Assembly: GCA_964106645.2 (NCBI GenBank)
Contig: OZ067039.1
Reading direction: 5' to 3' (one strand)
Origin: Podarcis pityusensis
Lineage: Eukaryota
DNA: 64,000 nucleotides
Of the stretch, positions 13,301 to 27,912 are shown in pieces (the first letter of the stretch is position 1; every line of letters begins with the position of its first letter). Position numbers: made by a program.

Positions 13301-16300
13301 TATATTTTGGAGATGGGGATACAGATAAGTAACTTGAACAAAGGATTTTTTTTTAAACTATTTGTCGCACTAAATGAGATTCTTGTCCCTGAACTTTCTG
13401 AGCCTCTTTTGAAATTCAGTGTTGGGGTAGAGTCCAGGGAAAGAGAAGGGAGCGGGTGAGGTTCATTTGCTTAGAAGCCTGTGCTTTTCCTCAGACGGTT
13501 TGTTTCTTTAAAAAAAAATTGTAGGGAAGATCAAACTGAAATAAAGATGTATGGATCTTCTGCCTCTATTTTCTTCTTCTTATTATTAGAGTGTCCTGTG
13601 CCTTTTGGATTCCTGTAATGAGCACCACATTATGTTTGATCGGCTATCTTTATCTCATGCTTCATCTTGTGTAAGAATTATGAACCTCTAAGCTGTTAAG
13701 AGCTTTTAGAATGAGTACTGCAGTCAGTAACAAACTGACTTGCATTAATGCTGATTGTAGCAATAGTTGAATCTTTCTATGAATGTGTGTGATTTTTAGG
13801 TGTTGTTTGACCTGGTCAAAACCCTGTAGAATATACTTCAAGATGTAATGCTGAATCACCTAATAATCAACCAGTGCAAAATAGCAGGGAACTAGCAGTT
13901 TCTGATGCAGGATGCTATCACTTGGAAGTTTCATAGGCAGAACCATTTTTGTCAAACTATATGACTCCTTTTCCAGAGAGTTTAACACACATTCCCCTGT
14001 TCCTTCTCGCTTTTTAGATGGGGAGGAGAGTGCATTTCCCAGGTAAATTATTTCTGAGGTTTTCCCCCCCCCTTCATTTAGCCTTGAACAGCTTCAGTTT
14101 TTATTTCATTTTTTAATATAGCATGTAAGTTGCTGCAGGTGAACAAAAATTCCTAAGATTTCTCTTGCCACTGCGCACAACATAGATAAAATCACAGGAC
14201 AAAACTGGGGGATCTTCTTGTCATTGTAATGCATTGGTTCACAAAAAGTGTGTTATGAGAGGAATGAGCCTTGTGTGAAAAGCCAGTTCCCCCTTGAGGG
14301 AGTATCCATTGACTATAAATAGCTTGTGATTTGGTTTGACTTAGTTTACGCACCAGATGGCGCCAAGCTCACTGGAAAGCACGAAGTCAATATTCTGTTA
14401 ATTTCTTAAGATGAGAAGGTAACTTCCACCACTGATTTTTTTTAATACATGTAGGTAAACACATGTTTATCTTGTAGCGTTGATTCCCCAACCCACATAT
14501 CTTCATACCATGCAATTAAGCAATCACTTTTAAGTGTCAGCCTCATTCATGTACACTAACTCTTCTTCACACAGTATCTGCATTTGCCCTACAATGAGAA
14601 TTACAGCAGTAGCCACTGAGTTAACATGATAATAGCTACAAGACTCTGCATAGTGAAGTTCTCTCGGGGTTAAAACTGTCTAGCAATGTGAAAGGGCTCA
14701 CAAATAATCTGACTGCCAAATACCTAAGCCAGGGATGAGGATCCTGTGGCAGCACTCCCAAAAGTTGAATTCTAACTCCATGATTGGGGATTGTAGGAGT
14801 TGTAGTCAAGCAATATTTGCAGGACTGCAGGTTTCTCATCCCTGACCTAAAGCTTAAAATTTAAAAGTGACTTCTGCCTTAAGAACCTTGTTTAGGGAGA
14901 TACCCTTCTTGCCATCTCTGTGTGGCCTTGTAAGTGAATGTGTCCATCATTTGAATTGTAAGGCTAAATTGAAATATTTGTCCAGTTTATAGAGGATCTT
15001 AATATCTTAAGTTTCCATTCATGTACCACTTCCATTGAATGACATTTATGAGATAAGGAGCTTGAAAGCAAGGCACTATTTAGCTTTTAAGGTAAGGAAA
15101 GGGTACCCTGGGCTGCGTTACAAGATAGGCAACTCTTAAATGCACAGCTGTCCATCTCTGCTTCCTTACCGTTTGCTTTGCCATAAGGGTACTTTAGTTT
15201 TTGTAGCTTCTTTACTCTTTCGGTGCCTGAGGTACAGTGCTCTTATAGTTCTGAATTATCACAGTGCTAATTAGTATGATGCTGTTGCCAGAATGAGGAA
15301 GATATGATGGCCTGATTTGACTCAAGCTAGTCTTGAAGTGTCAGCTCCCATCTGCCCTATATCATTCTGGCTCTGAAGTCTTTGTTGATTGACTATAATT
15401 ACAGCATATTGGTTACTCATGGAACACCGATTTTGTGCCAGAGAATTATCAAGCATAAGCTTCAGGCATCCTAAACTATGAAAGTGCCCCTCAAAGGGAC
15501 AGGTGTAGTCATGGTATTTGAACCACCTGATGTCTCTAATTTGTTTAACTCGAGCCAATTCTATAGCTGTTGACATTTAATAGTGGGAGGAGTTAGAAGC
15601 CGGAGTCTTAAAAACTGAGGGAACAGAATGAAGCAAATCTGGTTCTCATGCTCTTGCAGGTAATCGAGGAAACTGCTCCTACTACTAGTTAACCCCCCTG
15701 ACTTTGTACCTCTCTGGATTTTAGGCTCGGGTTTACTTACAAATGCAAATATTTTTAATCAAGGCACTTGGTGGGCTATCACTAACACTATTTCATGCCT
15801 TTAGAAGCATGTCTAAAGCAGTGATTCCCAAATTGGTTTGGAGCACACTAGGGTGTGCCACTGAAGAACCACAATGTGTCTTGAAGACATTCTGTTGGAG
15901 GCAAACACTCCTGCATTTCTTTTAGAGTGCAGTGGCCTTGGACATCACTCATTCCCTAGCCTGCTCCAGGATAACACCCAAAAGGAGTAAGGATGTTGCT
16001 GCAGCCCAAACTACAGGTCTTTGCACAAAGGTTATCTGAGTACCTGCTTGGCCTAGATCTGACAACCTTGGGCAGAAAATACAAGAGAACTTTTAACTGC
16101 TTGCCAGTGCTCAGGAAAAGCATATTAATCTTCTGGAAGTCACTATATAATTCAAAATGCTGCTTCGGATTTCCTGCAATTTAGCACATCCCCTTTAACT
16201 TCTGGCTACCTCTTTAGAAATAGAGCATCGGAAATAACCAGATTATTCAACAAGGCTTTCAGTCCTTTCTGTAGAAATCTGAATGAGGGGTTGAGCTGAA

Positions 16301-25300: not shown

Positions 25301-27912
25301 CCATTTGTTAAGCTATTTTTATGGAAAATCGGCAAAAACAGCACTGCTGGCATGGGCTGCCATATGTCCAGATTTTCCAATTTCCACCCGGGCTGCAGTA
25401 TTTAGACTGCAGTATTCTGTATATCCCCTGCAACCCTACTTTTAGGCTTGTGAATCACATAATCCGTGCTCTGAGCTAATGTACAGTCTATATCCTGACT
25501 TCTTGCACAAAGCTTTCGGGTTTCCTTGAGCTGAGAGTCCGAGTACTGTGTCCGAGAGTGGGAGCCAGGACACCCACAAGGCTGCAAACGGCATCACCTT
25601 TGGGGGTTCGCTTTCTAGCTGCCAAACTAGTGAAGAGAAGTAGTTCTGTGCCATCTAGTGGCCAGAATGCTGCACTGTTCCCCCAGTTTATCTTCAACAA
25701 GCTGTTTAATGTACAGAGATTGGAACATGGTCCTCGTGGACCATTTGGCCCACTTAGCTCTGTGTTGTCTAAACACTCTGGCAGTGGCTGTCCAGGGTTT
25801 TGAGACAGGGAAATTCCCAGGTCTACCTGGAGATTGAAGCTGGGACTTTCTGCAGACAAAGCACGTCCTCTGTCACTGAGCTACGGCCCTTTCAAAAAGG
25901 AATGGATTGAATTATAATGATTATCATGCTTGATTCTTCCATCCAGCTCTCATGTACAGTCTGGCTTTCACGACAACGCCAGTTTCTTTATCACACTCCC
26001 AACACGGAAGACCATTTCACGTGTCCATTTCCCCCAACCATGTGCGGTTGGGAAAAGCGTGCATTTTCCTGGGAACCATTAAAATGATGAAGTACCTGGT
26101 CTTCCCATTGCAGTAAGATGCAGGCCCCAGAAAGGAAGGAAATGAGCAGAGACGGCAGCAAGAGGTGCTACTGTGTGCACACTCCCATTTACTCCACATC
26201 CAGTGTGCTCCCACCTCTGGGTGTATACACCACATTTACTGTGATCCGTTTTTATTCTGTACCTATCCTGTTGTTTCTTATGAAGTTTAGTGCATTGATA
26301 TGTTTTCCCCCAAACCAGCTTTGATCCGAATTGAGTAGAAGAGCAACCCAGCTGTGTTTTAAGCTAGCAACTTGTGCACAGCCTACAGCTGCCTATTAGC
26401 CCGGACCCTTGGCTGTGTGGGCTGGGGCTGATTGTTGTCAGATTGCAATGGCATCTGGAAGTGCCCCATGCCAGCCACCTCTGATTTAACCCAAACAGGT
26501 ATAGCAGTGAGAGAGCAGGGACATCTTGGGGATAGTCCATCATCTAGTTAGGAAGAGGAACCTAAGAAAAGGAAAAGGGTATAGGAGGTACTATGCAACT
26601 CATGCAAACATATGCCAAAGGCTGCTTTACGACTTACAAGCAACAATCTTTTTTATTTATTTATTTAGACAAGAATACATTCACCCAGAAAGGTTCGATT
26701 CTAGGCTAGACGAAAAATCCACAGAACAGATCCAAGAAGGGGAGAGGGAAGACCCAAGCTGCAGCTTCTTATTCATTGCTTAAGGAAAAGGATCTAAGCC
26801 AGTCTTTATGCTGGGGGGCTTAAAAATTACTCTCTTTTTTGGGGTCTAGTCTCACTACAAAGGTTTTGGCTTGTTCTTCAAAAATGTTGAGATTCACAAG
26901 GTGTAGTGGCTTCTGTTTTACCACTAGGGGGACGCACAAATGATCCAATATGGTCATACCAAGTTGGGAAAACATCTAGCCCCCTCTTAGCCAACTTGAT
27001 CAGATTTCTCCCAAATTTCAGCCCTTGACATAAAGCCGCCTGGGGGACTCGTTGCTTCTTTCCTGCACATACAATAGAAAAACAAGAGTGAATAATGGGC
27101 AGTGACAAGGCAGGACATCTTTTTTTTCTCTCTCTCTCCCCACCCCGCCGTCCAATTTGTCTTCGAGGCTGACATAGGAAAAAACCCCAAATTGCCGCTC
27201 TCGCCTTGCACAGTTTTACCACAGTATCCTGAGAAGCATCTGGTGTGGAGCTGATAGCACAGGGGGGGTTCAGGCAGGAGCCCCAGCCGGAAGCCGAAGA
27301 GTTAGCAGCGGTTGGGGACCCACTGCTTCTGCCAGGACGTCAGACAGGAAACCTTACAATGGCTCTGAAGTGAAGGCTCTCTGGATCCCTGCCACTGTCT
27401 GTTCAGAGAGAGGCAGACACACCAGCCTCCCTGCCAGGGACAGCAGAAACCACTCAGAACCATTCCCCGAGGGCCATTTTGTGTGGCTCAACCAGCAAAC
27501 CATTGCGGCCATAGGAAGGCACTTTGGGTAGCTAGAATAGTAAGAATTACCCTCATTATTCCAGCCCATAATCCTTACCCTTATGTGCATAGTGACAGCC
27601 ATGTGCCAAGAACCCAAGAGCATCATGTAGCCTCTTCTCCACATGCCTAGGATATGCTCCTAAGCAGCTGCAGGCATGCGTAGCCTCCCGGGAGGCCTTC
27701 ATCCCATTACGAAAGTCTGTCCAAGTGAAACTTTGAGGAAACAGATCGTTGAAGCAAAATTGCATTCCCTTGAGTTCACCCACCCGCCTCCACTTATTTC
27801 TGAGACCAAGCTCCAATGTGCACCAGAGCCTTGAATGAGAGCACCAAATATGTGCCAGCAGAGCTCAGTGGGATACCCCTGTGTTGCCCACATATCTGTG
27901 TGGAGGAGGAAC

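What the first reader, a model, noticed from the sequence alone, without database searches (positions are those of the whole stretch)
14350..26934. CTCF grammar that would box the FGL2-like gene into its own loop, away from the putative GATA2 enhancers
Seen: forward motif at 14350 (between the convergent 3' ends), reverse motif at 25648 (~2 kb upstream of the FGL2-like ATG), then forward motifs at 26921, 35346 and 54441. Known: loops form between convergent CTCF sites, and divergent pairs mark boundaries. Inference: 14350/25648 form an ~11-kb insulated neighbourhood around the gene, 25648/26921 form a divergent boundary, and the remaining sites point downstream toward the presumed GATA2 promoter.
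Basis: partly seen in the sequence, partly recalled or inferred. Interest (0 to 1): 0.65.

Follow-up and report, generated by a model that had tools for sequence, protein, structure and literature searches.

The report
CTCF-like motifs around a lizard fibroleukin-like gene
A lizard gene lying between RPN1 and the presumed GATA2 region is flanked by paired, oppositely oriented matches to the CTCF insulator motif, which could wall it off from its neighbours, but this rests on motif matches alone.

Summary
The window is lacertid lizard DNA, not human. RPN1 lies on the + strand and its coding sequence ends at 12851. A fibroleukin-like gene lies on the - strand, with coding sequence from 23663 to 16837.

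A scan with a CTCF matrix recalled from memory changes the picture:
- 4 of the 5 reach p<1e-5. The site at 25646(-) is near-consensus at 22.3 bits.
- The site at 54441 is at chance level (9.6 bits).
- Five equal or stronger sites were missed: 14284(-), 16924(+, coding exon), 20402(+, intron), 44292(-) and 55278(-).
- 9 sites were found against 2.8 expected; 0 of 300 shuffles reach 9.

The order is < > > > < > > < <. Two tight divergent pairs flank the gene: 14284/14347 and 25646/26918. The first pair sits just past RPN1. That is where two opposite-orientation CTCF sites bound the GATA2 domain in human erythroid cells (PMC11869676).

A sub-loop around the gene is a coherent prediction. The claim that the remaining sites all point towards GATA2 fails. 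Occupancy, looping and conservation could not be tested. This is an ordinary kind of feature of modest interest.

The parts
1..12854 (+). RPN1 (ribophorin I). Exon 1 is cut by the window start. The last coding exon is 12654-12851. AATAAA signals lie at 13223 and 13540.
   Evidence: Pfam Ribophorin_I, E 1.7e-32. tblastn of Anolis RPN1 (P0124) gives 9 pieces covering residues 21-599.
14284..14302 (-). CTCF-like motif, 13.2 bits, no CpG. Left member of a divergent pair 63 bp from 14347.
14347..14365 (+). CTCF-like motif, 15.8 bits, two CpGs. Points towards the fibroleukin-like gene and the presumed GATA2 side.
16837..23663 (-). Fibroleukin-like gene, coding part. Exon 1 runs 23663 to about 23124, exon 2 is 18887-18753, exon 3 is 17427-16840, and the stop is 16839-16837. 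An alternative upstream ATG used by a Podarcis raffonei isoform lies at 23907.
   Evidence: Pfam Fibrinogen_C, E 3.1e-72. 100% identity of the last exon to P. raffonei fibroleukin-like X2. tblastn maps. N-terminus located.
16924..16942 (+). CTCF-like match, 12.8 bits, inside the last coding exon and antisense to it. It has a mismatch at a high-information G. Probably a by-product of coding sequence.
20402..20420 (+). CTCF-like motif, 14.6 bits, in the intron between exons 1 and 2.
25646..25664 (-). Near-consensus CTCF motif, 22.3 bits (p=1.6e-8), no CpG, 2.0 kb upstream of the ATG. It is the strongest site in the window.
26918..26936 (+). CTCF-like motif, 15.6 bits. Right member of a divergent pair 1272 bp from 25646.
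35343..35361 (+). CTCF-like motif, 14.1 bits.
44292..44310 (-). CTCF-like motif, 16.7 bits, reverse orientation. Second strongest in the window.
54438..54456 (+). Weak CTCF-like match, 9.6 bits, at chance level.
55278..55296 (-). CTCF-like motif, 15.0 bits, reverse orientation, 142 bp right of the N gap at 54937-55136.

Best explanation
The RPN1-to-GATA2 interval of this lacertid carries nine CTCF-type motifs at p<1e-5 in the order < > > > < > > < <. At least some are most likely real CTCF/cohesin barrier sites.

Two tight divergent pairs act as two-way boundaries:
1. 14284(-)/14347(+) lies 0.7-1.1 kb past the RPN1 poly(A) signals. It is the positional and directional counterpart of the opposite-orientation CTCF pair mapped just downstream of human RPN1, which bounds the GATA2 regulatory domain.
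2. 25646(-)/26918(+) lies 2.0-3.3 kb upstream of the fibroleukin-like ATG. The near-consensus, CpG-free 25646 site is the best candidate for constitutive binding.

Between the two pairs, cohesin would be held between forward sites on the left and 25646 on the right. That gives the fibroleukin-like gene a small, probably leaky, sub-domain of about 11 kb.

To the right, 26918(+) and 35343(+) face 44292(-) and 55278(-). The upstream landscape is therefore itself partitioned and does not uniformly point at GATA2.

Shown: motif presence, strength, orientation, enrichment and gene positions. Inferred: binding, cohesin arrest, loops, insulation, and homology with the human sites.
For: Motif strength and enrichment:
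- 9 sites at p<1e-5 against 2.8 in shuffles (0 of 300 reach 9) and 1.66 for column-permuted matrices (1 of 400 reaches 9).
- 25646 scores 22.3 bits. A site of 20 bits or more is seen in 11 of 300 shuffles and with 8 of 400 permuted matrices.
- Orientation is unambiguous at every site.

Spacing:
- The two divergent pairs are the two shortest gaps (63 and 1272 bp). The two convergent gaps are 5244 and 8949 bp. This is the direction seen genome-wide in human (PMC7422557, abstract and section 7; bioRxiv 10.1101/646851, passages).
- By the formula for 9 random points in 63.8 kb, a smallest gap of 63 bp or less has probability about 0.07 (my calculation).

Repeats:
- None of the 9 sites lies in an intra-window repeat.

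Human locus (PMC11869676, passages):
- Two CTCF sites of opposite orientation lie in the nearest region downstream of RPN1.
- The one oriented towards GATA2 contacts the GATA2 promoter in Hi-C.
- Disrupting it raises GATA2 and lowers RPN1.
- A methylation-variable region just downstream of human RPN1 overlaps a CTCF site (PMC3757050, abstract and passages).

Validity of the mammalian motif in lizards:
- Lizard CTCF zinc fingers are nearly identical to those of other vertebrates. The study's identity table gives 99.5%, which I take to be the zinc-finger value, and it included bearded dragon and green anole (PMC2515639, passages).
Against: - No occupancy, cohesin, contact or cross-species data could be obtained. 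The only genome collection open here holds bacteria and archaea.
- Among bound human sites, motif score correlates with ChIP signal at only r=0.43 (PMC7422557, section 5).
- Motif density here is 1 per 7 kb. That is three times the density of bound human sites (median spacing 21.6 kb), so several sites are probably unbound.
- In human, convergent patterns are depleted below 100 kb, so an 11-kb convergent loop is atypical.
- The sequence-only looping statistic is reported as low in reptiles.
- 14347 carries two CpGs in CpG-poor DNA. It may be methylated and poorly bound; the methylation sensitivity of CTCF is recalled knowledge.
- The orientation order has 4 switches in 8 adjacent pairs, as chance gives. 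Two specified divergent pairs have probability 1/16, and this was judged after the fact.
- The loose IUPAC count is not enriched (10 against 6.96).
- The matrix was recalled from memory.
Confidence: 0.4

Rival explanations
1. 14350/25648 form a private insulated neighbourhood. 25648/26921 form the boundary. All other sites are forward and hand the enhancers on to the GATA2 promoter.
For: The convergent and divergent relations of the three key sites are confirmed. 25646 is very strong.
Against: Reverse sites at 44292 (16.7 bits) and 55278 (15.0 bits) contradict the uniform forward grammar. 54441 is at chance level. The model ignores 14284(-) and two internal forward sites. It needs 14347, 25646 and 26918 all to be occupied, and two of those three are middling motifs.
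Confidence: 0.15
2. One large GATA2 domain. Only the RPN1-side pair works as a boundary, as in human. The fibroleukin-like gene lies inside the GATA2 landscape without its own insulation. 25646 is either unbound or serves as a promoter-proximal tether that helps the gene find its own enhancers.
For: The human locus has its mapped boundary sites at the RPN1 3' flank, and they loop to the GATA2 promoter. Convergent pairs below 100 kb are depleted in human. The idea of promoter-proximal CTCF aiding enhancer contacts is in print. I saw it only as a search listing (188 papers hold the phrases), and the original paper is recalled.
Against: 25646 is the strongest site in the window and has a divergent partner 1.3 kb away, which is the boundary signature. 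It lies 2 kb from the ATG, not at the promoter itself.
Confidence: 0.2
3. Mostly unbound look-alikes. The matches arise by chance, from sequence composition, from coding constraint or from old mobile elements, and do not organise chromatin.
For: - 16924 is explained by coding sequence.
- A four-copy repeat family carries weak CTCF-like words at 22784, 51071 and 52598.
- Mobile elements are known to spread CTCF motifs in mammals (PMC3368268, passages).
- Weak matches and loose IUPAC matches are not enriched.
- A 64-kb self-comparison detects only abundant repeats: 4036 bases were flagged.
Against: Enrichment at p<1e-5 holds against both controls. 25646 is a 1.6e-8 match. None of the 9 sites falls in a detected repeat.
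Confidence: 0.2
4. The words are read by another factor. One candidate is CTCFL/BORIS, which lizards express in somatic tissues. Another is a YY1-type factor at the AGATGGCG-like cores of 14347, 25646 and 35343.
For: BORIS is expressed in bearded dragon brain, kidney, ovary and other somatic tissues (PMC2515639, passages). The resemblance to the YY1 core is recalled, not tested.
Against: The full 19-column CTCF matrix fits 25646 almost perfectly. No YY1 matrix was scanned.
Confidence: 0.05

Closest known systems
CTCF site pair just downstream of human RPN1 (CBS1 and its neighbour) bounding the GATA2 domain (PMC11869676)
   Same: It has the same neighbour gene (RPN1) and the same place, just past the RPN1 3' end. 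It consists of two sites of opposite orientation, one of which points towards GATA2.
   Different: The human site lies about 129 kb from GATA2 exon 1, with no coding gene described between. Here a fibroleukin-like gene and a much stronger reverse site (25646) follow within 11 kb. Sequence homology was not tested. Binding is shown in human only. I saw text passages only, not the figures or supplements.
Divergent CTCF clusters at domain boundaries (PMC7422557)
   Same: Both < > pairs are tightly spaced (63 bp and 1.27 kb) and alternate with wider convergent intervals.
   Different: That pattern was defined on ChIP-confirmed human sites and on domains of tens to hundreds of kb. Here there are motif matches only, on a 5-11 kb scale.
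Insulated neighbourhoods (CTCF/cohesin loops enclosing one or a few genes; recalled from Dowen 2014 and Hnisz 2016, not read here)
   Same: A convergent pair encloses a single gene and its promoter.
   Different: At 11.3 kb the loop is far below the size range I recall (tens to hundreds of kb). Cohesin co-occupancy, which defines the class, is unknown.
HoxB spacer CTCF cassette (PMC11573545)
   Same: A few closely spaced CTCF sites separate a gene from a neighbouring regulatory landscape.
   Different: There, insulation was measured and depended more on the number and occupancy of sites than on orientation. This weakens arguments from orientation grammar alone.
SINE-borne CTCF sites (B2 in rodents, SINEC-Cf in dog; PMC3368268)
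   Same: A repeat family in this window carries CTCF-like words.
   Different: Those words are weak (6-11 bits). None of the nine strong sites lies in a repeat detectable inside the window.

Membership tests
Vertebrate CTCF binding site | Match to the core CTCF motif well above background | tested here: met
25646 reaches 22.3 bits. The matrix was recalled from memory.
Vertebrate CTCF binding site | CTCF occupancy in vivo (ChIP, CUT&RUN or footprint) | not testable with these tools
   No lizard occupancy data. A search for Podarcis plus CTCF found 4 papers, none with either term in title or abstract (listing only).
Vertebrate CTCF binding site | Host CTCF with conserved zinc fingers, so that the mammalian matrix applies | not tested
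   From the literature only. CTCF is highly conserved in bearded dragon and green anole, with near-identical zinc fingers (PMC2515639, passages). It was not checked for this species.
Vertebrate CTCF binding site | Motif and orientation retained at the orthologous place in related species | not testable with these tools
   No eukaryotic genome collection was open. Genome contigs holds bacteria and archaea only.
Convergent CTCF loop / insulated neighbourhood | [quoted passage not shown] | tested here: met
   14347(+) and 25646(-). Forward sites at 16924 and 20402 lie between them.
Convergent CTCF loop / insulated neighbourhood | Cohesin co-occupancy and a focal contact between the anchors | not testable with these tools
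   This needs RAD21/SMC ChIP and Micro-C or Capture-C.
Convergent CTCF loop / insulated neighbourhood | Size in the usual range of such loops | tested here: inconclusive
   The loop would be 11.3 kb. In human, convergent patterns are depleted up to 100 kb (PMC7422557, section 7). Small loops are not excluded.
Domain boundary with divergent CTCF sites | Closely spaced sites of opposite orientation pointing away from each other | tested here: met
   14284(-)/14347(+) are 63 bp apart. 25646(-)/26918(+) are 1272 bp apart.
Domain boundary with divergent CTCF sites | Drop in contacts across the site (insulation score) | not testable with these tools
   There are no contact maps.
Counterpart of the human RPN1-downstream CTCF pair | Location in the nearest region downstream of RPN1, with two sites of opposite orientation | tested here: met
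   The last RPN1 coding exon ends at 12851, and poly(A) signals lie at 13223 and 13540. The sites are at 14284(-) and 14347(+). The human description comes from passages of PMC11869676.
Counterpart of the human RPN1-downstream CTCF pair | Sequence homology with the human sites, and a loop to the GATA2 promoter | not tested
   No comparison with human sequence was made. GATA2 is not in the window.

The most novel reading that the evidence does not exclude
An ancient vertebrate fibroleukin-like gene is nested in the GATA2 regulatory domain of non-mammals. It is found in squamates, alligator, amphibians, lungfish, ray-finned fish and lamprey, and no mammal or bird is among the 120 best hits. The gene is kept out of reach of the GATA2 enhancers by a dedicated CTCF mini-domain. 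The RPN1-side divergent pair is a boundary conserved since the amniote ancestor. Mammals would then have lost the gene and its inner boundary while keeping the outer one.
Probability: 0.15. Interest if true: 0.55.

Novelty: new member of a known kind. Interest (0 to 1): 0.3.

Why it matters
If these sites are bound, the locus would be a compact natural case of a bystander gene insulated inside the landscape of a dosage-sensitive developmental regulator (GATA2). It would also show that the CTCF boundary on the RPN1 side of the GATA2 domain, which affects GATA2 and RPN1 levels in human erythroid cells, is old.

As it stands this is a sequence-level prediction of an ordinary kind. CTCF motif pairs like these occur throughout vertebrate genomes, and motif strength predicts binding only loosely.

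Tried and rejected
- Transposon origin of the sites. A BLAST of the window against itself flags 4036 bases as repeats, and none overlaps the 9 strong sites. Only the weak words at 22784, 51071 and 52598 are repeat-borne. This is a weak test, because 64 kb reveals only abundant families.
- Hidden coding genes under the sites. 10 ORFs around 25.5-28.1, 41-44.5 and 51.5-52.2 kb gave no Pfam family. One sub-threshold hit had E 0.099.
- RNA genes. There are only three tRNA-like SINE heads.
- GATA-motif clusters as enhancer marks near the boundary. The only cluster, at 27.9 kb, is a (GATA)n microsatellite. The only spaced E-box-GATA word, at 24586, lies in a repeat copy.
- Two-part (M1+M2) CTCF motif test. 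The M2 word is not given in the text I could read, so I did not test it from memory.
- Pfam on whole-frame translations of 55.2-64 kb, to look for GATA2 exons.
- Literature on the zebrafish orthologue name. 2 papers hold it (listing only), and neither bears on chromatin.
- A search for a printed size range of insulated neighbourhoods found 1 paper, which I did not use (listing only).
- PMC9307994, PMC6972633 and PMC8714714 (passages) added nothing decisive. They do confirm that distal GATA2 elements lie close to RPN1 in mouse and human.

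
Full report
**What the window is**

The sequence is CpG-depleted vertebrate DNA with one 200-base N gap at 54937-55136. I left the gap untouched.

An ORF at 5367-5906(+) matches Pfam Ribophorin_I (E 1.7e-32). One at 16837-17532(-) matches Fibrinogen_C (E 3.1e-72). 8 other long ORFs matched nothing.

The last fibrinogen-domain exon is 100% identical to 'fibroleukin-like isoform X2' of Podarcis raffonei. It is 88-93% identical to other squamate and alligator proteins (720 proteins at E<=1e-20 among 923 candidates, best 120 listed). 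The first exon is 96% identical to the P. raffonei protein. The window is therefore from a lacertid lizard, not human.

I searched the spliced genes exon by exon and did not join exons into a model. The exon maps come from aligning database proteins to the window:
- RPN1 (+): Anolis RPN1 gives 9 pieces covering residues 21-599. The last coding exon is 12654-12851. AATAAA signals lie at 13223 and 13540.
- Fibroleukin-like gene (-): the ATG is at 23663. Exon 1 runs to about 23124, exon 2 is 18887-18753, exon 3 is 17427-16840, and the stop is at 16839-16837.
- The longer P. raffonei isoform starts at 23907.
- Minus-strand poly(A) signals lie at 15754, 15576, 14441, 14112 and 14100. The 14.3-kb motifs are therefore either intergenic or in a long 3' UTR.
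- I recognised no GATA2 coding sequence by eye among the ORF translations of 55.5-64 kb. This was not formally tested.

**Checking the observation**

I scanned both strands with the JASPAR MA0139.1 count matrix. Its consensus came out as expected. Exact score probabilities put p<1e-5 at 12.73 bits.

- 14347(+): 15.8 bits
- 25646(-): 22.3 bits
- 26918(+): 15.6 bits
- 35343(+): 14.1 bits

The fifth site, 54438(+), scores 9.6 bits. About 5.6 such matches are expected in the window by chance.

- 14284(-): 13.2 bits
- 16924(+): 12.8 bits
- 20402(+): 14.6 bits
- 44292(-): 16.7 bits
- 55278(-): 15.0 bits; it lies 142 bp from the N gap

Orientation is unambiguous at all of them.

**Is it more than chance?**

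- At p<1e-5 there are 9 sites. 300 dinucleotide-preserving shuffles within 2-kb blocks give 2.8 +/- 1.6, the largest count is 8, and 0 of 300 reach 9.
- 400 column-permuted matrices scanned on the real sequence give 1.66 +/- 1.47, and 1 of 400 reaches 9.
- A site of 20 bits or more appears in 11 of 300 shuffles and with 8 of 400 permuted matrices.

Results that cut the other way:
- Weak matches are not enriched: 24 observed against 24.5 at p<1e-4.
- The recalled IUPAC consensus with up to 2 mismatches gives 10 matches against 6.96 expected, and 14 of 100 shuffles reach 10.
- With up to 1 mismatch it gives 3 against 0.51, and 3 of 100 shuffles reach 3.

So medium-to-strong CTCF words are enriched, as is usual in vertebrate DNA. 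One site, 25646, is outstanding.

**Anatomy**

The nine sites read < > > > < > > < <.
- The two shortest gaps are the two divergent pairs: 14284/14347 at 63 bp and 25646/26918 at 1272 bp.
- The two convergent gaps are 5244 bp (20402 to 25646) and 8949 bp (35343 to 44292).
- 16924 lies antisense in the last coding exon, over a conserved stretch of the fibrinogen domain. It has a mismatch at a high-information G. I take it for a by-product of coding sequence.
- 25646, 14284, 35343, 44292 and 55278 contain no CpG. 14347 contains two.
- None of the nine sites lies in a repeat detectable by comparing the window with itself; 4036 bases were flagged.
- A four-copy repeat family does carry weak CTCF-like words at 22784, 51071 and 52598.

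**What is known at this locus**

In human erythroid cells, two CTCF sites of opposite orientation lie in the nearest region downstream of RPN1. The one oriented towards GATA2 is called CBS1 and lies about 129 kb from GATA2 exon 1. It contacts the GATA2 promoter in Hi-C. Disrupting its motif raises GATA2 and lowers RPN1 (PMC11869676, passages only). The figures and supplementary files that show the sites were not visible to me.

A placenta-specific differentially methylated region immediately downstream of human RPN1 also overlaps a CTCF site (PMC3757050, abstract and passages).

The lizard pair 14284(-)/14347(+) sits in the same place relative to RPN1. It has the same opposite-orientation layout, and its forward member points to the side where GATA2 is expected. 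This is a positional analogy. I made no sequence comparison with human.

**How it most likely works**

Under loop extrusion, a forward site stops cohesin arriving from its right, and a reverse site stops cohesin arriving from its left.
- The RPN1-side pair would then be a two-way boundary between RPN1 and everything to its right.
- 25646(-) with 26918(+) would be a second two-way boundary 2-3.3 kb upstream of the fibroleukin-like gene.
- The gene would sit in an 11-kb sub-domain.
- To the right, 26918(+) and 35343(+) face 44292(-) and 55278(-). The landscape is partitioned again rather than uniformly aimed at GATA2.

All binding and looping steps are inferred.

**Reasons for caution**

- Among bound human sites, motif score and ChIP signal correlate at only r=0.43. 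Median spacing of bound sites is 21.6 kb, against one motif per 7 kb here. Convergent patterns are depleted below 100 kb (PMC7422557, abstract and sections 5 and 7).
- A sequence-only looping statistic is reported as low in reptiles (bioRxiv 10.1101/646851, passages).
- The orientation order here has 4 switches in 8 pairs, as chance gives.
- Lizards express CTCFL/BORIS in somatic tissues (PMC2515639, passages). A second reader of the same motif is therefore possible.
- CTCF itself is highly conserved in lizards (same paper), which supports using the mammalian matrix.
- Mobile elements have spread CTCF sites in mammals (PMC3368268, passages).

**What stayed unchecked**

- Conservation in other lizards and loss in mammals.
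- CTCF or cohesin occupancy and contact maps. A search for Podarcis plus CTCF found 4 papers, none about occupancy judging by the listing.
- The M2 half of the two-part motif. Its letters were not in the text I could read.
- Supplementary files of all papers, which were closed.

**Verdict**

The feature is an ordinary kind, CTCF motif pairs at gene borders. It has one strong site and a suggestive parallel with the human RPN1-side boundary of the GATA2 domain.

Noticed in passing
window 27915-27975: A (GATA)n/(GACA)n microsatellite gives the only dense WGATAR cluster in the window (10 in 500 bp). It could be mistaken for a GATA-factor enhancer signature.
   Followed up: yes
About 270 bp further on it contains a tRNA-derived SINE head (Rfam tRNA, 33.5 bits). 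The SINE lies 640 bp left of the 35343 CTCF-like motif.
   Followed up: partly
window 22678-22936(-), 24443-24682(+), 51028-51245(+), 52459-52768(+): A four-copy repeat family (alignment A1) carries a weak CTCF-like word (11.0, 11.4 and 6.2 bits in three copies). The copy at 24.5 kb carries the window's only spaced E-box-GATA word, at 24586.
   Followed up: partly
window 53298-53658, 57057-57427, 57731-58072, 62169-62656; also 1494-1565 and 6465-6522: These are further SINE-like repeats and tRNA-like heads. They explain the raised CpG ratio at 56-64 kb, which is therefore not a sign of an approaching CpG island.
   Followed up: no
window 16837-23907(-): The fibroleukin-like gene is strongly conserved: 85-93% identity in the fibrinogen domain from lizards to amphibians. 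Among the 120 best of 720 hits there are squamates, alligator, amphibians, lungfish, ray-finned fish and lamprey, but no mammal or bird. This window lacks, or skips, the short exon that the Anolis and Elgaria proteins carry between exons 1 and 2.
   Followed up: partly
window 23665-23907(-): The N-terminal extension of the P. raffonei X2 isoform aligns in a different frame from the main exon 1 in this window; the alignment pieces overlap at 23665/23666. The two start codons imply alternative 5' ends, or a prediction artefact in the database entry.
   Followed up: no
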